Program-made: the position numbers and the translations under genes
The notes under the pieces: generated by a model
The model's input: only the letters and a program-made list of their open reading frames with translations
The model's database searches: none
Told to the model about the DNA's origin: nothing
In this document: piece by piece, positions 6,101 through 51,451 of the stretch
How the letters are laid out: each line of letters opens with the position of its first letter
How positions within the stretch are numbered: the stretch's first letter is position 1
From: Aplysia californica
Lineage: Eukaryota
Length of the DNA: 63,229 nt
Direction: 5' to 3'
Assembly (NCBI RefSeq): GCF_000002075.1
Contig: NW_004797581.1
Location: forward strand, 62,001 to 125,229

Positions 6101-9100
6101 AGATATTTAAACTGTTGGACTTGTTTGATCTTTTCACGTTTGCTAATGAGATTACAACTAGGATTTGTTGCTTTTTTGGATATTACCATGCAATCTGTTT
6201 TCTTTACATTCAACAAGAACCTCTTAAAGTACCAAAATGTAGTATTTGTCTTTTTTTTACAGGAAATTCAATCAGGTTAGTTTTATTTTAAGGTGTGAAT
6301 TTCATTCAATACATTTCAGCATATTTACTTTTCTCGGAAAACTTTTGCATCCATTTTTTGTTTGTTCTTAACATTCCTTCTTCAGTTCTTTTATCTTTAT
6401 GCTTTCTCTAAATTTCAGTTTACTTGAGGCAAAGAATGTTTGTTTTGAAATTTGTCAATTTCAGCAGTGATTCACACCATATAAAATACTGAGATAAACC
6501 AGATAAGTATTCCAGTATATGTTTCAGTAACTGCAGTATTTAGAAATATCAGCAGCTGACTTTTTTTAAAGGCCAAATAGTGTTAAAACGTAAATTGGGC
6601 TTTGGTATTGAAGTTTTCAAGAACACTCAAGAGCTTCAAGAATAATTTATCCAAACTTTGAGAAAGACAAGCTCCATTTGTATTTGTAAGATTCAAAATT
6701 TTATTTCGTCTCTGTTTTTGTTTCATAACAGGTCGCAAGGTATATGAAGTACGGAAATAAAATGCTCTTTGTTGGAGACCTGGAAAGACACTTGAAAGAT
6801 CTGGATCACACTAAAGGTTTGTGGCTGTTGATCTGCTGGCAGTCTTTGATGCTTTAACAATTTATCTTCTGCTTGGCTATTGTTATTTTTGTCATTTGTG
6901 ATAGCTGGTTCATGGTGTTTAAAGCTATTTTTGATTTTGGGTCTACAAAGGATTTGCTATGTATTCAAGCGCTGAAGGCAAGCTGTAAATACTATTTTGT
7001 GGGGGGAGGGGGGTAACCAAACTCCCTTTTTTTTTAGTGTCTGGAACTTCATTAGACTGTAGTAGCACTTACCTAACTTTTTGTGGGTGTTTACTTTTTC
7101 TAAGACTCAACTATTTAATGTTTGCTGCGTGTTTCCCCTTCTAGACTGTGTTTGCCTTTCCTTTTAGACAGTCGTATACTATTTTCAAAGGTGCCCTTGA
7201 TTATATTACATTTTGTCAGTTTTTGGGAGACATTGAATTGAACATTTTTGTAACTTATAAATGCAGCCACCTTTGGCTAGTTTGTACTTTCAACCTCTTA
7301 CGTTTTTTTAAAGAAATAAGCAATGTACAAACAAGATGTCTTAAGTTTGCTGACCGTGTCAGACAAAACAGGATACTTGACGCCAACACCCGAGGATCAA
7401 TTTAATAATAATAATAATAATAATATATAACATTTATATAGCGCTTTTCCAAAAAAGTAGCTCAATGGGCTTTACATTGGAATACCAATTTTCAAAACCT
7501 TTCTTACTACTTCCTTTCTTCTCANNNNNNNNNNNNNNNNNNNNNNNNNNNNNNNNNNNNNNNNNNNNNNNNNNNNNNNNNNNNNNNNNNNNNNNNNNNN
7601 NNNNNNNNNNNNNNNNNNNNNNNNNNNNNNNNNNNNNNNNNNNNNNNNNNNNNNNNNNNNNNNNNNNNNNNNNNNNNNNNNNNNNNNNNNNNNNNNNNNN
7701 NNNNNNNNNNNNNNNNNNNNNNNNNNNNNNNNNNNNNNNNNNNNNNNNNNNNTAGGCACAGAACAACTGTAATAAAAAAAATAATGTTAAAAGCCTATGA
7801 AGTTAATGGAAAACCTGATGATAACTTCACAAGTGTTTGCTTGAACTTGAAATCAGATCTGGTGCTAAAGCATTAATGACAAGCTACCCATTTTTAAGTG
7901 ATCAGGCCAATTATCCTTTGTTCTGCGTTTATGAGGGAGCTTTTCAGCTTTATTAATGTGAAATGAGAGTTTCTCCTTCTCTCCTCCAGCTTGACTTATG
8001 TTTACCCGCTGTTGTCGGCTCCTGAGAGGGGGTGGTTGGCAGGTGCTCTGGTGTGGTTTGCTCTTTCTCTCCTATCAAACATTTATTATCTTATCCTCTG
8101 CTTACTATTTTCTTTGTTTGTTACTCCCTCGTAACTCCTGTAATCTTTGACACTTTAATGAGCCGTTTGGGTTGCAGTTGACAGTAAAACTCTTATTAAA
8201 AACTGAACTAAAACAACCCTTTTTGATGGGTGGTTGGTGGGTGCTCTGTTGATACCAATGCTGCTTCTTTCCTATCAAACATCTATCGTCCTTATCTCCC
8301 CTCCTTCTTTTTTATGTTTGTTACTCTCTTGTAACACCTCTAATCTTCTGGCACTCATATGACCTTATGCAGTTGCGAGCTCCATAAAACGAAAAACCCT
8401 TTTTGTTGTTATGTTTCAAGCCATGTCAGCAAAGAGTGACTTTTTGCTATGATTTGTGCTAATGTAGTGTAAAATAGTGGTAGTTCTCAGTGGACTAGGA
8501 TAGACAAAGCAATGTGGGTCATTTTAAAAGCTATAAATATTTTTCCTTTGAGAGTGCTATGTTATTGTTTGACCATAAATGGATTGTTCAAGAATAGCTT
8601 TTACAAATGATCAATGCTATGGCATTACTGAAAAAGGCAGTTACTTGACTATCAATGCACTCTCCGGGTTATATTAAGTTGGTAGGTAAGTTCTTCAGAG
8701 TTTTAATCTGGAAAGAAAAGAGATGCATAATATGTATTGTTGCCAACTTTTGCATATTCTGTAATATACAGTACATTCGTTTTGTCCTCAGGCTTCCTTC
8801 TAAATCAAGTTTCTAAAATGAGGCTTCGTGACTCCGAAGCTCCTGGGAATGGTCAGGATGTCCGCAAGAATGCGGAAAATGAGCTGTACAAGGGCTTGCA
8901 AACTATAAGACAATCCAGTATAGAAATACGGGAAATTCTCTCCATTCTCAAACCTCTGTTGGTGAGTGTTATAGAAACTGTTTGGAAGCAATGAGTGTGT
9001 AACCGATGAAACATTCATTCAAATAAAAAAGTTGTGTACACTTTTTAGCTACTGCAGTAAGTCAATGTCTACTTTTTCTTTTTCTGTGTTCTCCATGACA

Positions 9101-12100
9101 GACTATAAATCTGATGGTGCAAACAATGTTGTGTCTCATTTATGATTTATTTTTGTTGACCTGACAAAAAAAGTGCCCTATCTGTATACATTGTACGATT
9201 TTCCTTATCCTTCTGTGGAAGTGAATGACTTGACAGTGTGCTATATTTGTGTGGATCATTTTTGTTTTGTGTTCTTTCAAGGCCTTCAGTGTACCACAAT
9301 TTGATAAAACTTACAATGAACTGAAGTGCCGGGCTCCCTTACTGCTTTAAAAAAAAATTGTCTACTCATTATTTTGATTAGTTTGTTGGAGGATGCCACT
9401 GGTTGGTCCTACTTCTTTTCTTTCTCTCTATTGTTTCTGTTTAACTGTTTTGCTTCTTTCCAGCAAAAAATGACTATTTTTGTATGGATGTGCTTCTCTT
9501 TATTCAAACTCAAACTATAATTTGTTTGGAAGTTGTGGTCTTGGGATCCAAATTTTTTACCTTTTGGATATCAGTTACAGGTGAAGGGATATTAAATCAG
9601 AAATGTGTTCAATAATGGTAGTACTGAAATGTTACTGAGGCAATTTTTCTATGGGTCTGCAGGGTCATGTTGGGACAAAGTAATGTTTATAGTTATGGTC
9701 TGTAGGTGACGGAGATGGTTGCAATGATGGTGCTTGTGGTAATGATGAAAATAGTGCTGTTTATTTATTTTTCAGGCAGTGTTTTTCTGTGAATGTGATG
9801 TTTTAAAAAAGATTGCGTTTATGAGCCTTTAATATGAACTGCTTATTGTAAGAGTGGAGTACAATGTCATGCTGGTGTGGACATGATATTTTAATTTCAT
9901 AAGATGATTAAGGAATTTAACATTTATCCCATAACATATTTACTTTTGTCTGATATATGATAAACTTGAAGCTTGTAATCTACGAGATACTTAAATAAAT
10001 GAAGTTTTAACTCATCATCTATCTATTTCAGTCTGATAAGAAACTTGAAGCTCGTTTTCGTTTGTTGGAGGATCGGGCGTTTCAGTCGTCCAGTCAGTCT
10101 GGACAGGACAAATTGAGCCTGCAGGAAAACTGGTTTAATGATCTTTCTTCTCTGGATGGCTTGGACGTCAGATGTAAGTACACCATGCTCCTATTGTCAG
10201 CTGTGCAGTGTACACCAGTCAAAAGTAAATGTGCTGTAAAACATAAAGAGTTGTGCACTCCTTGGGTGCTGTATATACAAGCCCTGTATGTAGCAGTTTT
10301 TCTGGTCTGAAGAAGCTTAGCTGAACTGAGTCGTACAAGGCAATGGTACAGGAGATTACATTTTCATCTATGAATGCAGCGCGTTGAAGGTGTGTGCAAG
10401 ATATACAAAAAATATCTCTCTTGATCTCTTGACAAACAGAGAGCTGACGTTTTTGGTTCATTTAACTGGAACTATTTCTTTTTCTGTACAGCCTTTGCCT
10501 AATCTAAATATGGCGACATGCAATGACAGTGCCATGATATTAAGCCGCCTTGACCATACTGATTGTTTTGACTGGCATCTGGCTGTTTGCCATTGTTTTA
10601 TAATTTATACCCCTGTAGATGCAATTTAGATTATTTAAGTAGCTTGCAGTATTGTCTATCAGGACCAACATGGGCTGAGTGTGTTACAACGCCAGAGTGG
10701 GCAGATGGAGATACTCAATGAAGTAACTTTTCTATACTGGTGTCAAACTCAACTTCTTCTTTATATAAAAGTGAAAAGCCTATTAAATCAAGGACTACTC
10801 CAGTTTGAATAAATGCAATCAATTAGACTTGGAACAAAAGGAAGAGCTCTTAGAAGCTTTGTGATTAGCTCGAGCTTTTAAACTGATATCTTATGTCAGT
10901 ATGTTCTATGAGTATTGTATTCTTTTAGGTCAATAGTTGTCTCCTAGACAGTTTATCTTGATAAAAGGTTGATAAAAGAAACCAGGTCATGTGCAATGCT
11001 GATAACAAAGTCATTTGCTTGTTGTTTAAGATTGGAGTACGCCGTCTCAGTAGTGACCTTTGCCAGTGGGTTTTTTTTTCTTTTGTTTTTTATGTCCAAA
11101 AGTGTTATGAGCTATTTACATAAGTTGAAAAAAAAAAGTTTCAAAATTTGCTGTAGCATCTTTTACGTACAGTTTTTCCTTGTGCTTTTTCTGCTCCTTC
11201 TCCTCCTCCTTCGTGTTGCAACACTAGAGATCTTCACAAATGCTGAGGTCTGTCAAAGTGCAGTAGAGTCTGTCTTTAATTAAGGAGTTTTGACTCTGAT
11301 ACAACTTGATTCCAGTTAAGGCAAACTGCTGGTATAGAAAGCATTGTGCTTTACACTAGAAATGTCATACTTTTGTTTTTCTATGGGGGACCCAATGTTT
11401 AATATCTTAAGATTTGGAGAGGGGAGGATGGAGAGATCAGATATCATTTTCTTCATCTGAAATGTGTTGTAGCACTCTTGATTTTTCGAGAAACAAATAC
11501 TTATGTGCTCTACAGTCACGGATTTATGTCTCTTGAAACGAATTGTTTTGTCGGACCTGGGAACCACCATCCGTGGTTATAATTTTTAGGTTTTCCGCCT
11601 TACATACAACTGACGGAAATTTGGTCAGAGGGGAAGACAATAAATAGTCTGTTGAGTATCTATGTCTTTCCGCTAGGTTGACCTGCAGAACAGGACTTAA
11701 GCAATTGGCCTTCTTAATAATCTAAATGGGGTGGATGAATGGGTGGTTGGCGGGTGCTCCCAGGAAGCTGAGAATGTTTCTGAGTGTTCTGTTGTCTGTT
11801 GGGGTAATAATATAGTGTAAAACGCATAGAGCTTGCTGTAGAGCGGGGTTATGCGCTATACATATGCTATTTATTATTATTATTGCTTTGGTGTGGTTTG
11901 CTCTTTCTTTCCTATCAAACATCTATCGTCCTTATCTCCCCTCCTTTTTTGTGTTTGTTACTCTCTTGTAACACCTCTAATCTTCTGTACTTATTTGACC
12001 TTATTGTGTTGCAAGTGCCGTACAACTCTTTTTCAAAACAAAATGGGATGGATACCATTGAAATCTAAATTTTACATTGAGGACCAGTAAAAGTGATCAT

Positions 12101-28700: not shown

Positions 28701-31700
28701 TGAACCATCAGGGGCCTCTTGGCTTAACCGCTCAACCTATTGTTTGTATCTTATTTGACCAATGGGTGACCTTTCATACCAACACTCGCATTGTTAACAT
28801 GCGCACATGTCCAAACGTGTGTCAGGGTCAGACAGGCGGCTAGCTCTTGTGTGACTGTGTGTGTTTGTCTCGGGGAGGGGGCACAAGCAGTCCGGGCGTG
28901 GAATATCAGTAGAGATACAAACACGTCACAGTATTTTTGTTTTCCCCGGCTACTGATCAGTATTACAATGACAAGCTAGTATTGACATAGATCTTCTTAA
29001 TGAATTGCACGCTGGACTGTGGAACCAAATGTTCGGCAAACAATATATTGTAGATGATAAATGACATGAGCGTGCATTTGAGCGAATCGGCCTTTTTGCA
29101 CAGTGTGTGCTTGGTAGAGTTCAGTGTATTTTCCTGGAATTTTCCAGCGTTTCTTTGGTATGGCATCAAAGAAATGAAAATGCCTCTCATTTGAAACCAA
29201 ACTGCTTTTGATTGAGAAAGTCAAATACATTACGCATTACTTGCTCTGTGCCTGTAATTATTACACGAAAACCTCATGTTTTCTATTAAGTACACTCAGA
29301 TTCAATGAAATTGAAGGTCTGGCCCGACGGCTTTGTTGAATCCGAGTTCCACTGTATATATAGTGAGAGAATGTAATGCATCATACATATTTTGTGTCGT
29401 AGAAGCTAATGCATGCTCATTGTCACTTTATCCAATGTAGGATAGAAAAAAATTAACTGAAAAGTTTCCGTGTCGTAAAGAGGGTACCAGTCACAATCCA
29501 AATTTTGAAATAAGTTAAGAAAAATGTGTTTTACAATCTTCTGAACTCATCACATTTCACATGTTGTAATTCTTTGCTCTGATGTCTTGTTCGTGGTCCA
29601 TGTTTGGCAGTGATAAGTGAGAGTTGGGATGACACAGTAACAGTCCCTATAAAACAGTGTGCTGCACTATGAAGACCAGCAACGGCATGTTTGTAGTTTG
29701 TATTGGTGGGATATTACCATGTATCATCGCACCGGTGCCACTGACTTTAGTGTCTTTAGGCCATTCCCATAGGGGGGACACTTCTCGTTCATGCACAGTA
29801 GGATTTTAAATGGGCTGATTCATCAATGTCTCATAACTGTGCCTGATCTTCAACAGGGAACTGCTGCTTTTTCTTTCCTAATCCTTACTATGGTAATTTT
29901 TCCTTTACTTCTTTTGTATGTTTATCTCTCTCTTGTGACCCGCTATTTCCGGGGTGCCTTGAAAGCCAAAACAGACTTTGTGCTGTTGAAGCTAGAGAGG
30001 TGAGTAGAGTAAGCCTGATTCCCTGCAAAAACTTCACTGTTGACGTCCACCCCTTGGCGCTCATATGACCTTATGCAGTTGCGAGTGCCGTAAAACCTCT
30101 ACTAAATAAAAAAAATACCTCATCGTGTATAGGTCGCCACTCTTTATTAAGAAATTAGGGCTTCATGGTCGCCCTGTGTCTTATCCATAAGAGAAGAAAT
30201 CAGACCCAAAAAACCCAGTGGGGGCAGACCAAGGGAACAAAGTCTGTGGGCCAGGTAATGGGTAAAATATGTAAAGCTTTTGCCAAAAAGCATGTTTGTA
30301 GACAAAAGCTGTGTTTTATTTTGCTTTGAAGTACAGTTATTAATAAAAAGTCAACAAACAAAGGTGATGGTGCTTGCCATGAAAATATTGGTGTGTCTTA
30401 TCCGATGTACACATGATTTATACCTAAGTTTTTTCTCTCAAGTCTACCTGCTTATTATCCATGCATGAGTCCTATACGCAATGATATACAGTATGTATTA
30501 TATAGCAAGAAATTATTGTAAGTATGTTTGTAAGTGGTTTGGGGGGGGGGGGGGGTGCTCTGGTGTAGTTTGACCTTCTTTCCTATCAAACATTATCGTC
30601 CTTTTCTTGCCTTCTTTTTTGTGTTTGTTACTCTCTTTTAATACCTTCAGTCTTCGGCACTTGTATGACCTAACTGTGTTGTAGGTGCTGTAAAGCACTC
30701 CCTAAAGCAAAATAAATTGGTGTGTGTGCCATTGTAAACCAAATGTCCTAATTAAAATGATCTTTCAAAGGGTAATTTGTTTGTTTGTTTTATTTACTCA
30801 TTTGACCTGCCTCTTGTGTTTCCCCCAACAGGACATTGTATCCTGGAAGTGCTAGCCTCGTACGGTCACCTTCAGCACGTTGTCTTCAGTCTTCTTAGCG
30901 GCAGACCAGTGCTAGTGGCTGGCTCAGGCCGCTTTGAGGCAGAGGTGGTCAAGATGATCAACGCCTTAGCCATATTTGTGCCCGTTGCACGCAGGTAGAA
31001 TAATTGTATGAATTGCGCTGGTGAGCTAGGCACTCGTCTAGTCACTTGTACATATAAGCTGATAACAAATTCTGCTGATTTATCTTTTATTATTGGTGCA
31101 TATATAGGTACTTATGACCTTTCTTTTCTTGTTTGTTACTCTTGAGTCATTTTTATTCCGACCTATTGAAAAAAATAAGTCAGTGTGGAGGTCGGTTGTT
31201 TCCTTGATTTCTGTATCGAGATTGCAAAGTAAAAAGTTATTAAAATGTTTATATGATTTAATTCAAGCTTTTTCACTACCGTTTTCTCAACTATAATATT
31301 TACAAGCTATTGACCTCAATGCAAACAAGAAAAATGAAAGCCTACACCTGAGGAGTGGATGTGACTCATGCCTTATCTATTTTTTTCAGCTACCTTACAG
31401 AAACCCTTTTTTCTTTTTTTCAGGAGGCGACATTCTGTGTTAGAATGGACTTCCAAACCCCTTAGAATTGGAGATTTGACCAAACTTCGGCTTGTTGGTA
31501 TATGCAGGCCTGAGAGGAAAACTTTAGATTCTTTTGTCACAAGTGCCATCAAGGTCAGTATATCAAGGAAAGAAAGGATTGTCACAAGTATATTATGAGA
31601 TCATTGTTACCCCTTGACTGTGCTATCGTCCTATATCATATGTCTGTACAATCTGTCCCCCCCCCCCCCAGTGTTCTGTAAACATATCTTGTGCAGCAGC

Positions 31701-34700
31701 TTAAATGTTTTGTTTCGTGTTTCTTTGATATTTAAACTACAACCAAGTTTTGAATAAAGGGAGCGGCATCCCTTAAGAGCTTATGGTTTTAGCTATGAAG
31801 TCATCTCTGTATATAGACTTTTTGACTGAAACAGCAGGTGATTACCAATAAAACAAAGAAGGGTGTGTTATTTTTATAATGCACATTGTGCAAGACAGTT
31901 GGAGCGGACTTGTTTAATGGGAGTGCTTATTCAGTTTTGGTATTTTGAAGTTACTTTCATCGCTATGGCTTGATCTACCTGGTCATGTCAATGTACTAAG
32001 CTATCTATTCATTTATTTCTATTGATATATATATTATATATATAGTTTGACTGTCAGTAACAGGAAGCACGAGCTTTGTGACTGCTAAAACCAAGCGAGA
32101 TGTGTTGTTTGTCTTGCACGAGACAGAGATGGGGCCAGTGCGTTGAATCAGTGCGATTGTTCAGTTTCAGTACCTTTATATGGTTTACATCCTAATAGTT
32201 TGTTCTTCCCAGGTGTTGTCAATGGATGAGGTCATCTATTTATTTATCTTTTTATTGATATATAGTTTTATTCACCTGTCTCTTAAATTAAGAGAACAAA
32301 AGTCGATTAAAGATTGTGACCGGCATCTTGTGCACGATTGAGTTTTCCTTTGCATGTGGGGTGCAAATATATGGTTAGAAGTCAAGAGGTTAAGATAGTT
32401 GCTGGAGTTTTAAGAATTATATTTCTACAAATGCAGCTGGTTTTTTGTTAGGTGGAAATCTTTGCTTAAAGACTGTGAGTGATGAGTGTTTGTTGTAAAT
32501 GCTTGTTCATTTTTAAGAGAAGGGGGATGGAAGTATGTGTTGATTTCTTGAAGTTTAGATCATATAGGATAGAGGAGATAGTTGTAGGTGTGCATTTTAG
32601 AGACAGTGTGTTGCTTCTTTTTTTTTTTTAAGAGAGGACAATTCTGAACTGAGAGAAAAAAATGGGCGAAAGAGATAGATAAAAGTTGTAGTGTTTTGAT
32701 ATTATGCTGTGTACATGTACATTTTGTATGCTAGAAGCTGATGAAAGCACACTGTTATTTTCTTCCTGTGAAGGAACAGTGTGGTGTATCCTAAGTTATT
32801 TTTCTGATGCCTCTCCCACAATTGATAAATATGAATACATCTCTGACTTTGAGCGGCAAGCTTTTATTTTCTGAAGCAAAATGCTGGAAGGCCTCAAGTT
32901 TGCCGAAATTTGTTTGAGGGTGAGCACTGGTGACAGTATAGCCACATGCATTTGTTTTTACGAGAAAGGGAAGGATACAGATGTTGTACACAGGAGACAT
33001 GTTAATCATAAAGTGTTTCAGCATATGTTTGAATTTAATGTTTCTTCTTATTCTGTCCACATAGAGAGCTTGCACCATCATCGATGTGGAGAGGAAAGTC
33101 ATTATTGCACCTCCATACCAGGTTAGTTCGTTTTTTTCTTTCTTTTGATTTTTAGTGATTCCCAAAGAAATCCACACATAAAACCATTTTGACTCTTCGC
33201 TTACGGAAAGTAGCATTGTTGCATTATCAGTATAGTAAGGTATTGACAGTTAGTTACCAACAGAGCTGAGGACCAAGCGGCTTTGAATTATTAAAAGTAC
33301 AGGTAAATTCACTTCACTCAACTGAAATAAAAAGTAAGTAATGCTTTATTTCAAGTCCAACATTAACAAATTGTTTTGGAGAAAATCTTGAATTATCAAG
33401 TAAAATTTTGTGTGTGTGTGTGTGTGTGTGGGGGGGGGGTTGCCAATTTGCCTATATCAAGCTCACTGTATATGGTTGAGTCTCAGTAGTATTTTACTCT
33501 GTTGGTAAGAGCATAATGTCTAAATACAAGTCTGTCTGGATAAGAGTTATGATGGATCTGAATCTTAATTACGTCCTTTTTTTTTTTTTTTTGGATTCAC
33601 TTGATTTCAGGGTCATCTAATTACGCAGTTGATGTCAAAACGAAAGGTTTTAAAAACGGATGTTCAGTTTCTGGCTTATCTTGAGTGGTAAGTATCATGA
33701 TTGTACATTATCGTTACTGGAAAGATCCGTATAAGGTCCTGGGTCCTGGTTGAGACCCGGGTTCCTTTATTTGTTGGAGTAAGAGGGCATTGTTCTTTTG
33801 CCTTAATTTGTATCTCATGTTGTTCTGCTCTGTGTAACTGATTTTTTTTTTATTTTCAACTCGCAAAAGAAAGAACTTACTGATATTTAAATGATGAGAG
33901 AAGTCACCACATATGCCTATCCTCACTTTATTATACGACTTATAGCATGGAATGATCAATTCATACAGCATTGTTGTTGAATAAAAATGAAAAAAACTTT
34001 GATACTCCTAAATGGAAATCATAATGTGAATCTTAAACATACGCAATTAGCTGCATCTGTTTGGTCTTAAAGTGGTTGAAATGGTTTAAATATACTGAGA
34101 AAATGTCATCTTTTCTGCTCTTTGTTAACATTAATTCTTTTCATCCCTTAACACCTGAGAATGGATTAGTTGAAGTTATATTATCTTTTATTGTACTTAA
34201 CTAGGAATAAAACTTTGTAAATGTGTATTTAGGTGGGAATGCATTTGTTTCAACTTATTGCCTGTTCAAATTTCAATGTAATGATGCTCTCTTTATAATG
34301 GCTGTAAATGAATATACACAAAGTAGTACCTGTAACTTTCTTTGTGTTAAGATTGGGATAGAATTGTAGTTCCACTCAGTCATCTGTTCACCCCCCCCCC
34401 CCCCCCCCCCCCCCGGGGCGGTGCCACTGATTGTAGTGTCTTTCAGCCATTCCCAAAAGGGGGACATTTCTCGTTCAAGCACAGTAGAATTGTAAATGGG
34501 CTGATTCATCATGTCCTGCTCATAACTGGGCTCGATATGCAACAGGGAACTGCTGCTTTTTCTTTCCTAATCCTTACTATTGTCATTTTCCTCTACTTCG
34601 TTCGTATGTTTGTCACACTCTTTTGACCCGCTATTTCTGGGGTGCCTTGATAGTCGAAGCAGACCTTGTGCTGTTGAAGCTAGAGAGGTGAGCAGAGTAA

Positions 34701-37700
34701 GTCTGATTTACTGTAAGGACTTCTCTGTTGACACCCACCCCTTGGCACTCATATGACCTTATGCAGTTGCGAGTGCCGTAAAACCCTCTACTAATTTTTT
34801 TTAAAAAAGTCATCTGTTCTTTGCTTTTCAGGTGGCTCATGGACATATTTGCCAAAGTGTTCATATTCTTTCATTCCTTTTGTCTTGGATCAGCAGGAAG
34901 TATACTTTAGTAAGTGACCTTTTTCCCCCCACCTTTATACTTTTGAGTTCAGTCTTGTGTATTTGCAATTTCCATCTATTTGACCCGTCTTTTCTAAATT
35001 GTATACATGCAGAAATGTTTTAAAAAAGAAAATGTTATAACTATTATTAGAACTCATTTTATTTGAACTCTATCTTTCTCTTGAGACTTTTCAGATTAGC
35101 CTTATAAAGTAAAGAAAAACACATGTCAGAAAGGGTTTTAATGCTTAATGAAAAAAAGAGCCTGCAGTATTCAGAACTTACCTCTTAGACATGCATTTTG
35201 TTCGTATCTTATATAAATTTTGTAGTTGTATTAATAAAATTTTCCCACCCTAAGAAGATGTGATTCTTTTTATGCTTTTCTGGGTTTTTTTGTCATGGCC
35301 TGTCCCTCTTTTGCACTGTTATTCAAGCGCAAATTGTGTTGGTTTTTTTTTTTTCAGGAACATGTTTCTTATTTTTCTCAAAGCATTGATTGTACAGTCA
35401 CCACAGTTTTTAACCTCCTCTCCTCTGCCTCAGCTCCCACAACCCGAGAGACCAGCGTGACGCCTACGGCCAGACTGTCAGTGGCATCATGACCAGGTTG
35501 GAGGTCAAAGACTCGGACTGTGAGATTGTGGAGGTCAGTTTTGTGGCAGTGATAAAGTGAGAGTATGTGAACATATACTTTTTTATTGCATTTTGATGAA
35601 CTAGACACAGATTTACCTAAGCGTCTAACCGCTACACCACAGCGGTTAGGCGCTTTGCTGTTCCACAAGTTTGATTCCTGAGAGGGGAGAAAATTTTCAT
35701 TTAGTATCTCTGTCTTTCTTCCGAGATGTATCCGTCTCAGTTCGGGTTGGCCCTGACAGGCAGGGTCGGAAGCCCACCTTGTAAATGATCCAAACTGTAT
35801 CTATAGGGGCATAAAGAAAACCTACATTTTGGTTTTAGAAAATGACATTGAATTGGAGATTTTGATGTCGAAAAACTAGGTCCCGTGTATGAAATGCCTC
35901 AAAAGGACTTCTTCAAGTTGTGACATTTTTTCTCAGTGACACACATAAAATATGTCAGGACGGTTAAGAACTAATCCAGACCCTTTTCAGATTTAAGCTT
36001 TACTCTTCTTCATGTTGAATTCATAACTGACTGTGTCACATTCACAGCACTTTTCCTAAAATTTATAAGTATATAAAGAGTAAAGTAGCTTAGATGCTTG
36101 CAAATAATTTTAAAATCATACCAGGCCCCCCGGGGTAGTGCCACTGACTGTAGTGTCTTTAGGCCATTCCCAAAGGGGGGACATTTCTTGTTCAAGCACA
36201 GTAGAATTGTAAATGGGCTGATTCCTGTCACGCTCATAACTGTGCCAGATCTACAACAGGGAACTGCTGCTTTTTCTTTCCTAATCCTTACTATTGTCAT
36301 TTTTCCTCTACTTCTTTTGTATGTTTGTCACTCTCTTGCGACCTGCTATTTCCGGGGTGCCTTGATAGTTGAAGCAGACCTTGTGCTGTTGAAGCTAGAG
36401 AGGTGAGCAGAATAAGTCTGATTCCCTGTAAAGACTTCTCTGTTGACACCCACCCCTTGATGCTCATATGACCTTATGCAGTTGCGAGCACCGTAAAACC
36501 CTCTACTATAAAATAAAATTTAAAAAATCATACCAGACGTACTGTTCAAACCAAAGTGATGTGCCTTTTTCGGCATGGGTATATGGTATGACTTTGATAG
36601 CTTTACCATTGAAAACCAATATCGTAACTAACTATATTTATAGTAAAATTATTCATGTGACATTGTACTGCATCTGTACATCTATTCCCTCCATTTCCAA
36701 TGAATTTGATTGTGATGATTATCTCTTATACATATATGGTTGATGGGTAGGGCCTACTCTGGAAAGTTTACTCCTACTTTTTTATTCCAGGGTCACTGTT
36801 TTTTTAATTTTTTTTCTTGGGCAAAATATGGCTGTTATTACTCTGACTCTACTCAACTTGCAGCTCTTTATTTTATTGCTCAATACATAATTGTATGCAG
36901 ACCTCATGTGGACATTGTTTGCAAAGTGCAAAGCTGAAGGTCAATCACAGCATTTTCACCATTTTCACCATTTTCATGTGCTCTAGCCCTGCATGCAGTT
37001 AATAGTTTCTTATAAGAGGGCACCACCAGTAGATATATGATCCTTCTTTTTTTGCCATCCCTTTGTGGCAGTTTCTCTCTGTTTGTCTTGCTTCTTTCCC
37101 TGTACTAAATGACTGTTTTTCTGTTGATGTGTGTGGGTGGTTAGCGGGTGCTCTGGTGTGGTTTGCTTCTTCTTTCCTATCAAGCATCTGTCGTCCTTAT
37201 CTCCCCTTCTTCTTTTTTATGTTTGTTACTCTCTTGTACCGTAACAGCTCTAATCTTCTGGCGCTCATATGACCTTATGCAGTTGCGAGCGCAATAAAAC
37301 CTCTACTAAAACTAAAACTGTTGATGTGCCTCGCTTGGACTGGAACAAACTCTAACCTAAGTGGATTACCCCTTATTCATTTCACAGTACTTGACTGAGG
37401 TGGCTAAAATTTCTAGATTGGAGCCTCATGTATGGCATGGATCAGATCCAGGTGAGAGAATAAACTTCTCCTTTTTTTTTTCTTTCTTACTCTTGTTTCT
37501 TCTTTTTCTTTCTTTTTTTCTTCCTTTACTTTTTCTTCTTTTTTCTCACTTTACTTTTTCTTCTTTTTTTCTTTATCTTCTTTTTCTTCGGATTTCCCCT
37601 CCATTTATTGGTTGATCGACTCTAAATGGAACTTACCCCTTCCCCTTTCAGTCTGCTTGTCTTTATAAGTAATGCTGATCAGATTTTTTTCATACACTTT

Positions 37701-38954: not shown

Positions 38955-39133
38955 TGATTTGTTTCTATGGCAATGAACTTAAAAAGTGCGCTGTTGAATT
39001 CTTTGATTCATTCAAAGCATGGCCATATACAAGGCGTCTTTCTACTGCTTGCTTTGTATCCCAGATGTTGCCAGTGTTGTTAAGTGAACAAGAATCTGAA
39101 GGTCCGGAAGATGGTATCTACTCAGTTTCAGGC

Positions 39134-39365
39134 CATCATCATCATCATCATCTGGTGCCTTGCCGACTAGCGTGGGCGATCATGGACCTCCACTTCCCTC
39201 TGTCTTGCGTTGCAGCAATGGTGTCTGTTGTTTTTGCTGCTCCTAGCCATGTTGTCATCTTGCCCAGTATCTTTTCCCTCTGTCTGCCTCTGCCTCTCTT
39301 TCCGTCAAACTTGCCTGTTGTTACCTTATTCTCCAATGCTTCTTTCCGCATTGTGTGTCCGCAGA
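39134..39365 (-). mobile_element. RTE-clade LINE 3' fragment in the probable SMCR8 3' UTR
   Basis: GKFDGKRGRGRQREKIL...WRSMIAHASRQGT; (TGA)n tail. Confidence 0.88.
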
Positions 39366-40322
39366 AGCATAGGAGAATATTGTAACAACATCGTGCAACT
39401 GCTAAAAAAATCTCGAGTCAGCAATGAACTGGAAACATAAGGGCTTGTCTGGTCAACTGTGTAATGTCAGAGGTGAAAGAAGAACAAGCGTGTGTGGTGG
39501 CTTAGGTCTGTTTTAAGACTGCCAAAATATGTATACCTTGATATTATCAAGACATCACTCTTATTCCACAATTTCCCAACTCAGTTTTGTGATGTGTTTG
39601 AGCTGGACAATGTAGCCTACTGTAGTCCCTGATTCATGTTTTATCCTTTCACATCCTAGATTAGTAGGCTATGTAGATAATTTTCGACTGTTAAAAACTT
39701 CTGATCCCAAAAAAAGATAAATGTCATGATTGTCTGAGACGGCCACCCATTTTGGGGGAGAAAAGTAGTTGTCTGGGGCAGGACGGATCAGAATGGAAGA
39801 AAAACGACAAACCATTTCTTTGTAAGATCCCAGTCAGAAGTGGTCATATGTTTACGACTGCTATAAGGCCCATTAGAATGTGGGGGTTTTTTCTTATAGA
39901 AGGAGGGTGGAAAGCTAGGTTTTGTGAGTGAAATTCTTTTGAAGTGTATCAGTAGTATCAGACAAAGAAGACGGTGAGCAGTGCAAGTGTAAATCTAAAC
40001 AAAATGTGTTAGTTGAGGAAGATCGGGTGCCATGGTAAAACAGACTGTGGTCTCCGCCACTCCGCGGATGAGCGGCATTCTGTCGCAAGTACATGTTGAC
40101 GTCCATTGTTACCCACTGGGTAAACAGAGTGACTGCTCCCCAGGTGAATGGATTATGATGGTTCTTCCTCAGCATCAGGGGCTGATGTATAGTTCGTGGT
40201 AATTAATGGGTTTTGAGAGATTTGCGTGGCCACCTTAGACAGATTTTGTTTGAGCTGTTGGTTGATAAAATATAGTGGCCATGACCATGTTGGACCGGTG
40301 ATCGTTTTACCCTGTACCACTA

Positions 40323-40500
40323 TGGGTGGTTGGCGGGTGCTCTGGTGTGGTTTGCTTCTTCTTTCCGATTGAACATCTATCATCCTGATCTTTCCTCCTT
40401 CTTTTTTATGTTTGTTACTCTCTTGTAACACCTCTAATGTTTGGCACTTATATGACCTTATTGTGTTGCAAATGCCGTAAAACTCTTACTAAAACTAAAA
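40323..40500 (+). mobile_element. Short retroposon family A
   Basis: Head, body, tail and (CTAAAA)n end. Confidence 0.88.
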
Positions 40501-42037
40501 TAGTTCCGTTATGTAGATAAAACTTGAGGGGGGAATGGAAAGTAGCTGTTTGTACAGGTGGCCGTCTTAACAGATTTTACTGTAATTATCTCATTCCATA
40601 TGTGTTGCATCATATGATGCGATGAACAAGACCCATATTGATATTCCGTGTTGAGGGAAAAATACTCCCATGATCTACATTCAACAACTGTTCTGTCATT
40701 TAGTTATGTTCCTCCTTTGATAGTCTTGACGAGAATTTTTTATCTTTGACATTATCAATGCGACCCTCATCATGTCAGTCCCCGTCTAGTCAAGATTGGG
40801 AAATTTGGGCTTTAAAAATGTGTGAAGAATAGCTTATTTTTATGAATCACATCTTTTTTTTTCACTTCATGACTTTGAGCCGTACTTATTATGAAAGAAG
40901 AGATATTGACGTTTAATGTGTTATATCATGATGTTCAGTGTAGATCACTTAAACCGAGAATGATTAATCTGAAAATAGTGGTAATCCGAAAGAATACAGA
41001 ATCTCCGCTGTGTAAAAAAAACTACTGATTGGCGAAAATGCTCCTTTTTCTAAAATGAAAAGAATTTTGAGGATTATGTCTTCTCATTTTTCACTAGAAA
41101 TTCAAGTAGTGTAAATCATATAATGTAACATGTTTCAAATGAGGAAACAAAAGAGTTACAAAGATGCATGCGAGTCGATTTTGGGTCAGAGAGAAACATC
41201 GCCGGTGTACTGTTAACCTACTTTTATGACTCACATTGATTGACCTACGCACTGTGTATAGGCTATTGAAACTAGAATTATGAATGTATGTCTGTCACTT
41301 GACTTTTTGGTGGGTCATGACCTATTGTCTCTGCGAAGCTAGTTCCCATATGAGGAGTCTATTAAAAAAACAGACAGTCACAATTCTGGAAAATGAGAGG
41401 ATATCAATTTTAAGATTTTATAGACTCTAAACTGCATTTCTTTTCGACTTTTTATTATTATTATCATTATCGTTGTTATTATTATTATTAATTGAATAGG
41501 AAATCAAAGAAAAATAATCGATTGACTGTCGAATAGAAATGAAGTCGAGAAGTTTAAAAAAAATTGATGTCCCCCTCAATTTCTATTTGGTGATATTGCC
41601 CGTTTTTCATGTGAACGTGTTACTAACATCAGGTCTTATCAATATCACTTCTTTAGCGGGCAAAACGCTTTACAGTTTAGTTCAACGTGCTGATCTACTC
41701 TTGCAGCTATTCTGCGTGACTGTTCGGTGGATTAACTTTTTAATATGTTCAGAGCCGCACTCTGCATCAGGCAGTTTTTCCTATATATGTGCTTAGAGCC
41801 ACACACTACGGCACTGAAATCGATGACGTGTAGTAATGTGAAAAAATCATTTTCTGTTGTGAAAAATTAATTATTAAGTTTCTCCAACTACCGCCACACC
41901 TTTGCCAAATGTCCAAAACTTTATATTGGCATTATATCATTCGTATCCATGGTTTCAGTGACACAGGACGTGGCTCCTATCAAATATCTATTTATCATGT
42001 GGGGATGTAATTTTTAAAATGTAAGGCATATAGGCTA

Positions 42038-42840
42038 CAGTGGAAACCATATATAACAGGCCCGGTAATAACAGGGATCCGGTAATAACAGGGATTTTTT
42101 AAATCCCCGATTTTTCCTACTCTTTGTCTCTATTAAAAGTTATCGGCAATAACAGGGCCCTATCGGAGCCCAACTGGCTATAGCAGGGACAAAGGCTCGT
42201 TAACGATGTGTAAAAAGTGAGAGAGAGAGAGAGAGAGAGAGAGTAATGCAGTGATGGAGCAAGCCCATGCAAGCCATGCCACTGCAAGCACACGCAGTGT
42301 GTGAAGCGAGAGAGGGCTGCGGTGTGCTGCAGACCTCAATCTAGCCCGAAACCCAGCAACACGCACGCGTAATGCGTCTACTGTCACCAACCATGTCAAG
42401 CGCAAGAGAAAATGTCTTTCAATTGACAAAAAAATACGAAATAATCCAGGCTATTGACAAAAAGCAAGCTCCACTGGCAGAGATTTGTCGTCAGTTCAAC
42501 ATTCCACAAGGGTCGGTTCATACCATTATCAAGGATAGAGAGAAGATAGTGGCAGCATACTCCAATGGAAAGTTTGCTCTGTATCGAAAGAAGTTGAGAC
42601 TGAGACTACCCAATGCAGATGCTGTGGACCAAGCTCTTCTGATGTGAGGCAATGGAGAAAGTTGGTACCAAAACCCCTGTTCGTGGGTACTTGTGGCAAA
42701 GGAAACTACTACCCATGAATAAGTACAGCTGGATTAGTCCTCAAATGCTTAATTTCCTTGCATTTCTGATTTAACAGGGATCGGATATAACAGGACATTT
42801 TCTCTACTCCCACCATCCCTGTTATATCAGGTTTCCACTG
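42038..42840 (+). mobile_element. Internally deleted pogo/Tigger-like element retaining the CENP-B-type HTH N-terminus
   Basis: TIR CAGTGGAAACC..ATATAACAGG, TA flanks; ORF 42372..42647 KKYEIIQAIDK...EICRQFNIPQGSVHTIIKDREKI...VDQALLM. Confidence 0.9.
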
Positions 42841-43579
42841 TATATATATATGTAATATATGTAATATATATATATTTACTGTTTAGATAAATTGGTACTG
42901 TTTTTAATTGGTATTTTCTCCTCAAATATGCAGTGGCTATTTATTTATGGTTGTACTGGTAAATCATACTATTTAGTTGAAATTTGAATAGCTTGAAAAA
43001 TTGTGTGTATAGAAAATATTGAACTCGACTTTTGATCTTTTATTTTGTATGAAAAAAAGTTGACCTAAAAACATCAATACATTTGTAAATATCTCACTGA
43101 AAAAAGTGAAATACTCATTTGATGAAAATGCCTGCATTTCCTGACATTTAAGTGTATGCTATACTTATTCTGTGATATATTATGTATTTTTTATCTAAAT
43201 ATTATGTTTTTTGTGTAAGGCCTTTGATCAGAATTTCATCAGGGGAAGAAATCCTGACAAATTCTGATCTTAACTCTATGCTCTTACAGGATGAAGCAGA
43301 CTGACAGTGTCAAAGAGAAAGCACAATATGCACATCCTGCAGCTTGAATTGCAATCACTGTAAAAGGTAGATGAGTAAACTTTCCAAAAGTGAAATTTGC
43401 TGCAACTGCAAGCATGGTATTCCCAATTCCACACTTTTGACAATCATTGTTGTGAGATACAAAAATTGAGAGGGCAAAGAACGAGTTTCTCCAGCCTTCC
43501 CTGAAGATATTAGAAAGTTAGTATTTTGGTGGGGGTTTACACAAGCTCGGTGCATGAATGTTCCAATCTCACCAGCATC

Positions 43580-43737
43580 TGTGGTGTAGTGGTTAGGGAA
43601 TTGCTGTCGCATGCAGGAGGCTCAAGTTCGATTCCTGAGTGGGGAATAAATTTTTATCGAGCATCTCGGTCTCTCTGCCTGGATGGTGTATCCCTCTCAG
43701 CCCAGGTTGACAGGATCAGAAGCCCACCTCCTTAAAA
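43580..43737 (+). mobile_element. tRNA-headed SINE family D
   Basis: A box TGGTGTAGTGG, B box AGTTCGATTCC. Confidence 0.75.
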
Positions 43738-44250
43738 CTCTTTGCGGTCTCTTGCTGCTATAATGCGACAGTGAAAATTATTCCGTCTGGTCACTTGCTG
43801 CAGTTCTGCGATAGGCCCAAGAAGTCTGCTGCAGTCACTCTCCTGGCTGGGTTACCAGATAGGGTATTTTGTACTGCTGGCTGTGTGACTGCAAAGTGTT
43901 AATGATCTAAATTGTGTCGATGCAGGTGTGGAGTAAAAAACATCTACATTTTTTTTTTAAATTTGTTCCAAATTTGGGGACCAATTTTGATGGAGAAAGC
44001 TGGTCTGAGTGCACTTTTTTAAAGCAATCTTTCTAAACCGAAAGTACAACCAAACAAGAAAACCCAGCGCCCTGCTGGTTTTGGTTCAGGTGATTTTCAC
44101 TGTATTATTATTATACATGAATTCTGAAGCCCATTGCTATTTTTTGGAATACAGTAAAATTCTGCAATTTTTTGTTGTGACCTCTGCCAAAATGGACCTT
44201 AAGACACAGAGCTCATGAAGTAAAACATACTACTATATTCAACATGTTTC

Positions 44251-44440
44251 GTTGGCAGGTGCTCTGATATGGTTTGCTCCTTCCTTCCTATCAAACATGA
44301 TCTATTGTCCTTGTCTCTCATCCTTTTTTTTCTGTTTGTTACTCTTTTGTAACACTTCTAATCTTCAGCACTATTATATGAAATATGATGTGACTGTTGC
44401 AAGTGCTGTAAAGCTTTTACTACAAAAATTACAGTAAGCA
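44251..44440 (+). mobile_element. Short retroposon family A
   Basis: 10-bp TSD AACATGTTTC at 44241-44250 and 44441-44450. Confidence 0.85.
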
Positions 44441-47253: not shown

Positions 47254-47745
47254 GGGGCTCTCGTGGTCTAGAGGATAAGGTGTTCACCTCTCATTCAATA
47301 GGTCCCGGGTTTGAATTGGGAAAGCGACAGAAATTTTTCTTCTCTAAAAACTTTCTCCTTTCACATCCTGTTCTGCTTTCTAACAATGTTCTGTCGTCCG
47401 TTTTCGTCTCCCCTTTCTGCCCACACCCCCTCACCTCCTTTGCCCACTCCTGTGGGCTCCTGACTCTTTCTACGGCCTTTCTACTGCCACTCCTTGGCTC
47501 CGTCTTTCTGCTGTCACTTACCCCTGATCTAATGGTAGATAAGATCTACACCTAGCCTGCTTGGATGAGGGCAAAAAATCTCGGAGGTCCTGTGTGCAAC
47601 ATTCCTTGATGGTCCATAACCTATAAAAGTGGGCTTCAGCGGCCACCCAGGCAAAATTCGAAATTTCCTACCAACTTAAAATGTTTACTGTGTCCCACGC
47701 GCTCACATGACTTTAAGCAGTTGAGTCCGTCATAAAACACTTATG
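47254..47745 (+). mobile_element. tRNA-headed SINE family C
   Basis: A box TGGTCTAGAGG, degenerate B box, shared tail (decayed). Confidence 0.82.
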
Positions 47746-48392: not shown

Positions 48393-49866
48393 TTCCGCAC
48401 GGCGCACAGAGTGGCGGCTATGACAGTGTATGGTCTAAGATATTTTGTAATTCTATAGTGTGGTAGAAAATTCATGGTGAGGCAGGAGCATCTTCATTTC
48501 TTTGTCCTCCTACTGTTTTGTGTAATTTGTGTGATCGGTCATTACAATTTTAGTTTTGGTTATAATCTATTAGTTTTTGTGCATGCTTAGATCTAGTTGT
48601 AACAACCAACATATTGTGTTTCACCCCACGTGCCAGCATTTTATATAAGCTTCTTTGAAAGGCTAAACTCGGTCCAAGCTTAGATCTGTTCTGAAAAGCT
48701 AGTAGCATCTTTATTACTTTGTCCTCCTATGTTTTGATTAACTTGTATCGTCAGTCGTTACACTCTCAGCATTAGTTGTAGTCCCTAAATTTTTTTGGCA
48801 TATTCAACCAATTGTTTGTGTTTAACCACAGGCGCTAGCATTTTACAGGTTTCTTTTCAAGGCTAACCTCTATAGGCCTATATCTGAGTCTAGATGCGTT
48901 CTGAAAAGTGAGCAGCATCTTTTTTTCTTGTCTTCCTACTGTTTTGAGTAATTTGTGCTTTCGGTCAGTACACTCTCACTTTTGGTTACAATCTATTAGT
49001 TTTTGTGTGTGCTCAGTTGTAACAGCTAATGTTTTATTGTGTTTGACAATAGCATTTTTTACGCTTCTTTACGAGTCTAAACTCTAACCAAGCCGAGTTG
49101 TGTTCTGAAAAGCTGGTGGCATAGTTATTTCTTTGTCTTTTTACTGTAACTTGTGGTGGTTGGTCGTTACAATCACAGTTTTGGTTGTATTTTATTTGTT
49201 TTTGGGCATGTTTCACAGGAGGACAAAGAAATAAAGATGTTTCCGACTTTTAAAACACATCTAGGCTCGGATAGAGTTAAGTAGTTCAAAGAAACGTCTA
49301 AAATGCAAGCACCTGTGGTAAAATACAATAAGACGTTGCTTGTTACAACGAGACATGCACCAAAACTAATAGATCATAGCCAAAACTTCGAGTGTTATGA
49401 CTGACCGCACCAGATAATCAAAACAGGAGGACAAAGAAATATACACATGTACATGCTACCAGCTGTTCAGAAGACATCTAGGCTTGGTTACTTAACTTAG
49501 ATTTTAGCCTTATAAAGAAGCCATTAAAATGCTAGCACCTGTGGTAAAACAGAATGTGTTGGTTGATACAACTAGACATGCACGAAAACTAATAGTAATA
49601 GATTATTAACAAAACTTAGAATCTAACGACCGACCGCATAAGTTAATAAAAACTGTAGGAGAGCAAAGAAATAAATAAGATGCTGCCATCTTTTCAGAAT
49701 ACCTCTCCGCTTGGTTAGAGTTCAGCCATCCAAAGTTAAGAAGCCTATAACATTTCGCACCTTCGTTCGAACACAATAGTGTGTTAAATTGTTACGTGCA
49801 TGCACAAAAACTAATAGATTATAACCATCAGTGGGAGTGTAATGACCGACCGCACAATCTACTCTA

Positions 49867-51451
49867 CAGTGGCGGCTCGTGGTTTATAGTTATAGAACTG
49901 ACCGGCGGTCATTCACGTCGACTATTTTTCCCNNNNNNNNNNNNNNNNNNNNNNNNNNNNNNNNNNNNNNNNNNNNNNNNNNNNNNNNNNNNNNNNNNNN
50001 NNNNNNNNNNNNNNNNNNNNNNNNNNNNNNNNNNNNNNNNNNNNNNNNNNNNNNNNNNNNNNNNNNNNNNNNNNNNNNNNNNNNNNNNNNNNNNNNNNNN
50101 NNNNNNNNNNNNNNNNNNNNNCGCAGTCCCCACCCCCACCCCCTCCCCCACTCACACACACACAGACCACAGTAAACATTGTAATAATGTGAAAGAGCTC
50201 AAATATGCGGTAGCGTCAAGAAACAATATTATGAATAATGTAAGATGGAAGTTACTGAAATTAATAGAAACTCGCTTGATCGGCACAGAAAAAGAAACAC
50301 ACTACTTCAGTCTAAGCTAGAAAACAAACTGAAAGTGAGAAGCAATAAACCGCTGGTCCTGGCCTTCGGTACAATACTTTACTCGTACTTTCTACACCCC
50401 CCCCCCCCCCACAAAATATCGACGTGCACTGAACCCGTATGTAATAAGAACTGTCCTGTATGATGACAGAAAGTCAATTGCTACTGTACCAGTGACACTG
50501 TCCCAAGCAGATCAAGTCTACGATCAGATGCTATACAAAGCTGGACAAAGCACACACGTCTCCGATCATAATATCATCAAATGTACTTCATCGCACTTCT
50601 CACTTCTCAGAACTGAACACTGTTGTAACAAAGTGGGGAAACGTGTCAAATGCTAATTATAGAACTTGGTGTCTAGCTGGGGTGAGGGTTGAAAAGGGGA
50701 GGGAAGGGAGGGGGTTTTCGGCCCAGACTCTGACAGCCGAGTGTCTAACGCTCCTCGTTAAAATTTTCCTGATATATATCTTCACTAGACGATTCCTTCT
50801 TTCGCCGGCCAGACTCCTAAGGGCCAGGTAAGTTATTAGTGGGGAGAAAACGATGAGTAAATGCCAAACAAGAACTATAGGTGGTTAAAAAGTCAATAAA
50901 CAAAAAAGAGTAGTGCCATGCTGACAATAAATGTTCTGATAGTAGTTAGAGAAAGGCTGAATGATAAATACATGTTTTGCTGATAAAATAATACATGTGT
51001 CTGTGCTGCTCAAGACAGTCTCATTCTTAATTTTGTAAGCTACAAAGAGGCCAATCTGGCAATCAAGGGATATACCAATCTTTCTGTGGGCTGACGATGG
51101 ATTTGTCCATGGGACTGAGTCGTCGCTAGGCCGTGTGTTTGGCCTCGTTCGTAGTAGCCTACGAAGTTCCGCGACGTGACGGTTTGACGGGAGACGATTT
51201 AAAGTTACGAGCCGGCGCGATAACAAACGGGAAGGAATGAGGTTATGTCGCGACAAAACAGCAGTGAATCCCACTTGTCTATTTGAGCGCCTTCAAATCG
51301 GCAAGGTGTTTTTGAATGTTGATACATGTTTGTTTGGATTTACTTAAAACTGAATGAAAATCGTCATCAGCAATAAACCTCTAGTCAACAGTTCAGTTGA
51401 CAAAAATCTGACCGGCACCACCGGTCTTGTCCAGTTAACAAACCGCCTCTG
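49867..51451. mobile_element. Non-autonomous hAT-type element inserted in the satellite
   Basis: Termini CAGTGGCGG / CCGCCTCTG; 8-bp TSD CTACTCTA at 49859-49866 and 51452-51459. Confidence 0.88.
49933..50121. other. Assembly gap
   Basis: N run. Confidence 1.

What the first reader, a model, noticed from the sequence alone, without database searches (positions are those of the whole stretch)
8028..44440. Family A: ~180-bp retroposon with a fixed 5' end but no tRNA/5S/7SL head
Seen: ten copies, most starting within a few bases of GGGTGGTTGGCGGGTGCTCTGGTGTGG, five with 9-14 bp TSDs, all with a pyrimidine-rich body and a LINE-type tail ending in (CTAAAA)n-like repeats. I find no A/B boxes. Established: random 5' truncation gives ragged starts and typical SINEs have an internal Pol III promoter. 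Inference: this is a headless non-autonomous retroposon whose 5' end is set by an external-promoter master locus, a LINE 5' terminus (RIME-like bipartite element), RNA processing or a strong RT stop. Novelty is unverified.
Basis: partly seen in the sequence, partly recalled or inferred. Interest (0 to 1): 0.7.

Follow-up and report, generated by a model that had tools for sequence, protein, structure and literature searches.

The report
Abundant headless retroposon with LINE tail

Summary
Ten copies lie in the window; the exact 18-base head occurs 16,982 times genome-wide, control 90. In 60 arbitrary 10-kb stretches 46 of 68 hits start at positions 1-5; 17 of 32 full copies have TSDs abutting the start (control 1.1). 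No shared upstream sequence or tRNA head exists. The tail is 95% identical over 42 nt to the 3' end of an I-group (Nimb-like) LINE in this genome. That LINE's 5' terminus is not the family-A head, so the strict RIME-like reading fails for this partner. An internal T6 run argues against Pol III. Best reading (0.5): a Pol II non-autonomous retroposon with a copy-intrinsic start, working like mollusc LP-SINEs and Sadhu but with an unidentified head. No RNA start was shown. Dfam and Repbase could not be searched. Verdict: real, a new variant of a known kind, moderate interest.

The parts
8028..8215 (+). Family A copy, full head
   Evidence: nhmmer model positions 1-178
8226..8400 (+). Family A copy, tail type 2, TSD 13 bp with 1 mismatch; head-to-tail behind the 8028 copy
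11741..11759 (+). Head piece, probably the separated 5' end of the 11884 copy
   Evidence: blastn 19/19; sequence
11884..12044 (+). Family A copy, model positions 17-180
16268..16450 (+). Family A copy, tail type 1, 9-bp TSD
17300..17473 (+). Family A copy, full head
27845..28024 (+). Family A copy, tail type 2, 16-bp TSD with 1 mismatch
30540..30714 (+). Family A copy, head decayed into a G run
37133..37318 (+). Family A copy, tail type 2, 11-bp TSD
40322..40501 (+). Family A copy used as reference for the sub-parts below
40322..40351 (+). G/T-rich head (positions 1-30), origin unidentified; predicted to fix the start
40352..40440 (+). CT-rich body, homologous to a block in family B and weakly similar to the LINE 5' UTR; holds a 5-bp hairpin
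40402..40407 (+). T6 run (Pol III terminator-like), positions 81-86
40443..40500 (+). LINE-type tail: 7-bp stem-loop (positions 122-155) and CTAAAA-type end
44251..44427 (+). Family A copy, 7 nt 5'-truncated, 10-bp TSD read by eye
29728..30112 (+). Family B copy (about 390 bp, starts with a C run, shares the CT block and tail with A); ends approximate
34409..34803 (+). Family B copy; ends approximate
36127..36518 (+). Family B copy; ends approximate

Best explanation
[quoted passage not shown] Steps: (1) Pol II starts at G1, directed by the G/T-rich head and perhaps the CT block (inferred, untested). (2) The RNA runs through the T6 run to the tail (inferred). (3) ORF2 recognises the tail stem-loop and primes at the CTAAAA end (tail identity and stem conservation shown; the mechanism follows from established target-primed reverse transcription). 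(4) The RNA is short, so most cDNAs reach G1 and insert with 8-17 bp TSDs (shown). (5) New copies can become sources, which kept the same start through successive subfamilies and a change of tail (the succession is shown; the cause is inferred).
For: Fixed start: 46 of 68 hits at positions 1-5, 39 at 1-2, in 468.6 kb of arbitrary stretches. TSDs in 47 of 101 full copies (control 2.55), 45 of the 47 ending within 2 nt of G1. No upstream homology: among 159 heads, 8 pairs share sequence up to the junction; 6 are copies sitting behind another copy's tail and 2 are local duplications. In two RNA-seq runs 2,442 and 2,770 reads leave the head into unrelated flanks (agreement 0.37). Only 66 of 16,982 heads have a B box 5-35 nt upstream, with unlike spacers. 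Tail: 95.2% over 42 nt to the 3' end of LINEs L112, L121 and L129, whose 1226-aa ORF2 has endonuclease, RT and RNase H domains. 12 of 25 3' ends in LINE 3'-UTR context finish in CTAAA. The two tail types differ by two compensatory pairs in the stem (A-T 63 / G-C 18, and T-A 67 / C-G 26, of 102 copies). Against Pol III: a T run of 5 or more in 77 of 105 copies, whereas the tRNA-headed SINE with the same tail has one T4 at most in 480 nt; PMC4494074 uses the same argument for SINEU. Subfamilies at about 15.5%, 9% and 5% divergence all start GTGGGTGG; the youngest differs at 14 sites, 10 of them in the tail, and matches the LINE tail.
Against: No RNA starting at G1 was seen: no pile of read starts or ends in 3 runs on 7760-27600 or in 2 raw runs on one copy. 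Those are fragmented poly(A) libraries with little power for this. No promoter function was tested. The head does not align with any LINE 5' end I found (A 1-35 against six 5' UTRs, p 0.10-0.99; 30 more loci). The only core-promoter hint is GGTTT at +28 to +32, a 4/5 match to the DPE consensus as I recall it (the LINE has AGACC there), which is within chance. Staggered subfamily ages fit one evolving master locus equally well. The CT-block likeness to the LINE 5' UTR is low-complexity and borderline (profile test: tail type 2, 0 of 250 scored shuffles reach it; type 1, 9 of 210; family B 180 of 228). No LINE with the older tail type 1 was found (0 exact among 1,033 matches).
Confidence: 0.5

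Rival explanations
1. One or a few master loci sit directly behind a host Pol II promoter (an snRNA-like or ordinary start site). All dispersed copies are dead, and subfamilies arise as the master changes in place.
For: No recognisable internal promoter. Subfamily ages follow one another (15.5, 9 and 5%). SINEU heads come from externally promoted genes (PMC4494074, passages).
Against: The youngest subfamily carries a block of tail changes that match the LINE. If this arose by template switching, the new source lay at a new locus and still started at G1. Gene conversion at the master would also explain it. No master was identified.
Confidence: 0.22
2. The RNA is cut out of host pre-mRNA. The head GTGGGT acts as a 5' splice site (or another cleavage occurs there), so a released intron begins exactly at G1 and the LINE enzyme primes on the internal tail. 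No promoter is needed.
For: The first six bases resemble a splice donor (GTGGGT in 45 and GTGAGT in 3 of 102 copies). Copies lie mostly on the T/G-rich, presumably sense, strand (46 of 59) and all ten in the window are on the strand of the predicted exons.
Against: The strand bias is shared by family B (23 of 29) and an unrelated RNase H-bearing LINE (22 of 30), which have no such head. G at -1, which strengthens donors, is scarce (7 of 101). No HDV topology or hammerhead core, no Rfam ribozyme. The window's predicted exons had almost no reads, so splice joints could not be tested.
Confidence: 0.12
3. The head is the 5' terminus of another, older or extinct LINE, making A a strict bipartite or LP-type element. 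This shares the internal Pol II mechanism with the best explanation and differs only in the origin of the head.
For: Family B, which shares A's CT block and tail (scores 65.5 and 82.5 against shuffle maxima 41 and 43), starts with a C run like the local LINE and like the scallop LP-SINE head. The A body aligns weakly with older LINE 5' UTRs (p 0.000-0.012 for L189 and L190).
Against: All 108 heads in 1.06 Mb continue into the A body or end at a locus edge. The 27 head-bearing copies without a tail share only nested A, B or other SINE sequence. No hit to the head at the ORF-proximal 5' end in 20 RT loci of several clades, only some of them full length. CCCA before the head (77 of 16,982) lay inside the TSD in 8 of 12 checked.
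Confidence: 0.15
4. Pol III transcription from a degenerate internal or an upstream (U6-type) promoter, or a strong RT stop inside a longer parent RNA.
For: Short length; one A-box-like 11-mer with a mismatch at position 6.
Against: T6 at positions 81-86 lies before the tail in both subfamily consensuses; no B box. RT stops leak, yet no read-through copies were found.
Confidence: 0.08

Closest known systems
LP (LINE-promoter) SINEs of molluscs, e.g. Lsa_2, Hdi/Hmi_LP, Sgl_LP, pectinoid MESC SINEs (PMC4758252)
   Same: Short, TSD-flanked, LINE-mobilised; head not from a small RNA; Pol II proposed but untested; CT-rich region behind the head; ACTAAA noted before the terminal repeats in some families (section 10 read; ACTAAA at 167 in A).
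   Different: LP heads match the first 70 bp or so of Nimb-17_LMi, I-3_DR and RTE-9_CPB and, in the scallop family I could see, start with a C run. The A head has no C run and matches no LINE 5' end found here. Family B looks more like an LP-SINE than A does.
Bipartite non-autonomous LINEs (RIME, NARTc, Bov-A, Vingi and R2 derivatives)
   Same: No ORF, LINE 3' end, probably Pol II, defined 5' end.
   Different: They usually keep the LINE's own 5' end and are reported only for RTE, Ingi, Vingi and R2 (PMC5786205, passages). A's partner is I-group and its 5' terminus is absent from A.
Sadhu (Arabidopsis)
   Same: No small-RNA homology, no A/B boxes, conserved 5' motif followed by a pyrimidine patch, TSDs of 8-18 bp, internal promoter proposed (PMC2848041, passages).
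   Different: About 900 bp, poly(A) tail, low copy number, plant; no sequence relation is claimed.
SINEU (crocodilians)
   Same: Internal oligo-T taken to exclude Pol III; mode of transcription open (PMC4494074, passages).
   Different: Head from U1 or U2 snRNA; Rfam finds no snRNA in A.
tRNA-headed SINE of the same genome (Nin-domain type; label recalled)
   Same: Same tail as A's youngest subfamily.
   Different: 480 bp, tRNA-like head with a B box, at most T4, no strand bias (11 of 26).

Membership tests
Non-autonomous non-LTR retroposon | Variable-length TSDs | tested here: met
   17 of 32 arbitrary full copies against control 1.1; 8-17 bp
Non-autonomous non-LTR retroposon | 3' end shared with a LINE in the same genome | tested here: met
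   95.2% over 42 nt to L112, L121, L129; CTAAA ends in 12 of 25 LINE-context 3' ends
Non-autonomous non-LTR retroposon | Mobilised by that LINE's ORF2 in trans | not testable with these tools
   inferred from tail identity
Canonical SINE (tRNA/5S/7SL) | Head derived from a Pol III small RNA, with A and B boxes | tested here: not met
   B box upstream in only 66 of 16,982 heads
Canonical SINE (tRNA/5S/7SL) | No Pol III terminator before the tail | tested here: not met
   T6 at 81-86; T5 or longer in 77 of 105 copies
LP-SINE | Head homologous to the 5' end of a LINE 5' UTR | tested here: not met
   Not met for the two local I-group families; published LP and Repbase heads could not be aligned
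LP-SINE | CT-rich region behind the head, LINE-type tail with short repeats | tested here: met
Bipartite non-autonomous LINE (RIME-like) | 5' terminus of the partner LINE kept | tested here: not met
   LINE starts ACCCCCAGTGGGTC; only the hexamer GTGGGT is shared
Bipartite non-autonomous LINE (RIME-like) | Internal piece of the LINE 5' UTR kept | tested here: inconclusive
   CT block: p 0.000-0.012 for two old copies, 0.03-0.29 or worse for others; low complexity
Ribozyme-headed retroposon (HDV-like, hammerhead) | Ribozyme fold at the 5' end | tested here: not met
   No Rfam hit; no hit in my HDV-topology scan, which had no positive control; fold z about -1.7
Nimb clade (partner LINE) | Two ORFs; ORF2 with endonuclease, RT and RNase H | tested here: met
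   this places it in the I group
Nimb clade (partner LINE) | RT groups with Nimb reference elements in a tree | not tested
   No named Nimb reference among the 120 listed of 2,055 homologs; 'Nimb-like' rests on architecture, the C-run head and recall
A described repeat (Dfam, Repbase, SINEBase entry) | Consensus matches an entry | not testable with these tools
   Libraries not on hand; three 22-mers found in 0 papers

The most novel reading that the evidence does not exclude
A promoterless retroposon whose RNA is released from host introns: its first bases act as a 5' splice site, which fixes the 5' end at G1, and an I-group LINE primes on its internal tail. A family of tens of thousands of copies would then spread with no promoter of its own.
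Probability: 0.1. Interest if true: 0.85.

Novelty: new variant of a known kind. Interest (0 to 1): 0.42.

Why it matters
How SINE-like elements without a Pol III head are transcribed is an open question for LP-SINEs, SINEU and Sadhu. This family is very short and abundant: 16,982 exact heads, and roughly 70,000 head-bearing copies by my extrapolation. It has a base-precise start, an intact partner LINE and a tRNA-headed sister SINE with the same tail as a control. That makes the question testable with a 30-120 nt reporter. If internal Pol II initiation holds, it would be one of the smallest self-starting retroposons and would extend ORF-less Pol II derivatives to the I group. If it has a single external master, it is a very successful retropseudogene family.

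Tried and rejected
RNase H-bearing LINEs as partner: 30 top loci and 20 further stretches (13 of the 20 gave a readable 3' end) end in AAC, GA, CAAG or similar repeats without the A tail (the output was cut). Search for a LINE that starts with the A head: none among 20 RT loci, 20 ORF1 loci, 30 of 316 5'-UTR motif loci; a distant ORF2 query gave 43 matches, many at places already seen, not examined further. LINE with tail type 1: none exact. tRNA-headed subfamily: 20 of the 66 B-box cases were examined; several lie behind tRNA-like pieces, but spacers differ and 7 of 20 have a TSD at or near the A boundary. Expression: the run search listed no holder on record as RNA; three poly(A) runs with the same species label were laid; reads are abundant on both strands (18,509 of 14.8 million and 22,516 of 12.9 million) but run into mixed flanks, so they show embedded copies and say nothing firm on a free RNA. 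Poly(A)-like loose ends behind a tail cannot be told from genomic A runs. An early estimate that the two tail types are of equal age was biased by top-hit loci and is replaced. Host gene: four predicted exons gave no credible Pfam hit. Earlier findings of the scan: nothing. Papers: eight searches found no description of this family; subscription papers, Repbase Reports and figures are outside them.
Full report
Observation. The ten copies are real and all lie on +. Eight carry the head at model positions 1-4, one is probably interrupted (head piece at 11741-11759) and one lacks 7 nt. Five have TSDs: four by script and one by eye.

Scale. The window lies in a 927-Mb genome, likely a mollusc's: named homologs of the partner LINE include two gastropods, and the repeat types fit (recall). 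The exact 18-base head occurs 16,982 times, control 90. From 46 head-bearing hits in 468.6 kb of non-N sequence I extrapolate roughly 70,000 such copies.

Fixed 5' end. To avoid the bias of top hits I took 60 stretches of 10 kb at round coordinates. Of 68 family-A hits (those inside families B or the tRNA SINE, and tail-only hits, were left out), 39 start at positions 1-2 and 46 at 1-5; the rest are scattered. In the first 40 stretches 17 of 32 full copies have a TSD, against 1.1 in permuted flanks; over all loci then held, 47 of 101, and 45 of these end within 2 nt of G1. Twenty of the 47 overlap the first one or two bases, which fits microhomology at the 5' joint.

No hidden head. Among 159 heads with 100 nt of flank, the 8 pairs that share sequence at the junction are tandem neighbours or local duplications. 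In two RNA-seq runs 2,442 and 2,770 reads leave the head into flanks that agree at 0.37, and contigs under a second organism label behave alike. A B box lies 5-35 nt upstream of only 66 heads, with unlike spacers. ARAGORN and Rfam find nothing on the element.

Partner LINE. Among 20 RT loci chosen from 150 matches, L112, L121, L122 and L129 end in the family-A tail (95.2% over 42 nt for three, 92.9% for L122). The element has an ORF1 of about 500 aa and a 1226-aa ORF2 with endonuclease, RT and RNase H: I group, probably Nimb (no tree made). Young copies end in TAC repeats; 12 of 25 further 3' ends in LINE context end in CTAAA. The tail forms a 7-bp stem, and the two tail types of A differ by two compensatory pairs.

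The LINE 5' end is not the head. Full-length copies of both local I-group families start ACCCCCAGTGGGTC (head motif in 17 of 20; 23 of 30). Family A shares only GTGGGT with it. Positions 1-35 do not align with six 5' UTRs. The CT body aligns weakly with 5'-UTR positions 120-190: p 0.000-0.012 for two old copies, weaker for the others, and mixed in a profile test. I treat this as a lead.

Polymerase. Both subfamily consensuses hold T6 at 81-86, before the tail; 77 of 105 copies keep T5 or longer. The 480-bp tRNA-headed SINE with the same tail has one T4 at most. Pol III would stop before the part that ORF2 needs, so Pol II is the likely enzyme (inference; same argument in PMC4494074).

History. 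Clustering 102 copies not chosen by likeness to the query gives groups at about 15.5% (17 copies), 9% (57) and 5% (28) divergence, all with the same first eight bases; the youngest differs at 14 sites, 10 in the tail, and has the LINE's tail. A start that survives a tail change favours a determinant inside the copy, but an evolving single master is not excluded.

Strand bias. Neighbouring copies share orientation: 42 same and 10 opposite pairs in arbitrary stretches (p 0.0001); 23 of 30 neighbours under 10 kb apart on contig C1 and 18 of 38 beyond 30 kb. 46 of 59 copies lie on the T/G-rich strand, which I take as the sense strand of genes; this rests on skew and predicted exons, not on annotation. 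Family B (23 of 29 top hits, 10 of 15 arbitrary) and an unrelated LINE (22 of 30) lean the same way, the partner LINE weakly (12 of 20; 17 of 25), and the tRNA SINE does not (11 of 26). The bias is therefore not special to A and gives only weak support to the splice model.

Mechanism. Shown: fixed start, TSDs, LINE tail with conserved stem, no small-RNA head, internal T6, subfamily succession. Inferred: Pol II transcription, a start set by the element itself, mobilisation by the I-group ORF2. Not shown: any RNA that starts at G1 (low power). I put 0.5 on an internal Pol II start with a head of unknown origin. The reading that the head is a lost LINE 5' end (0.15) overlaps with it. An external master gets 0.22, release from host RNA 0.12, Pol III or an RT stop 0.08.

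Comparison. It works like the LP-SINEs of molluscs and like Sadhu, but fails the LP and RIME membership test on the defining feature I could test, a head taken from a LINE 5' end. Papers seen: PMC4758252 (passages, section 10 whole, supplement search, part 1 of 5 of supplement 4; supplement 1 not searched; figures not held); PMC5786205, PMC11203168, PMC11481361, PMC2848041 and PMC4494074 (passages only). Eight searches found no description of the family, and three 22-mers occur in no paper. An entry in a repeat library remains quite possible.

Verdict. A real, very abundant family; a new variant of a known kind; interest 0.42. The boldest reading not excluded, release from introns at a splice-donor head, gets probability 0.1.

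Noticed in passing
window 29728-30112, 34409-34803, 36127-36518 (+); L032-L060: Family B: about 390 bp, fixed start at a C run, TSDs, shares the CT block and tail with A, internal T5 runs. It looks like an LP-SINE; its head does not align with the local LINE 5' UTRs.
   Followed up: partly
L121, L171-L190, L231-L260: The I-group LINE 5' end can form a 9-bp hairpin around a TATA-like loop, crossed by a C-run/G-run pairing, and is the same in two families whose ORF2 DNA is only about 67% alike; L173 seems to join one family's 5' UTR to the other's body. No Rfam hit.
   Followed up: partly
window 14749-15234 (-), 47281-47740 (+), 62134-62619 (-): A 480-bp tRNA-headed SINE with a CT-rich middle and the same LINE tail; no strand bias, unlike A and B.
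   Followed up: partly
L008, L055, L060, L169, L045, L015, L018, L021, L024: A and B copies are often inserted into or right behind A copies, nearly always in the same orientation (L045 is the exception).
   Followed up: partly
L025, around 2400-2750 on the minus strand: One chimeric copy: A head and CT block continuing into the 3' half of family B.
   Followed up: no
window 48480-52670 and 56900-57570: A degenerate repeat of about 220 bp in direct and inverted clusters; similar sequence is seen in L072.
   Followed up: no
window 8792-8961, 10032-10173, 20570-20971, 35434-35519 (+): Predicted exons of a host gene on +; no credible Pfam hit; the three within the laid stretch had almost no reads in three poly(A) runs.
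   Followed up: partly
L274, L276, L277, L281, L282, L291: A few A copies sit 5-35 nt behind tRNA-like 3' halves of a similar type; spacers differ, so these are probably insertions next to a small tRNA-derived repeat.
   Followed up: partly
window 58198-58826: Three copies of a 132-nt AT-rich repeat spaced about 250 bp apart.
   Followed up: no
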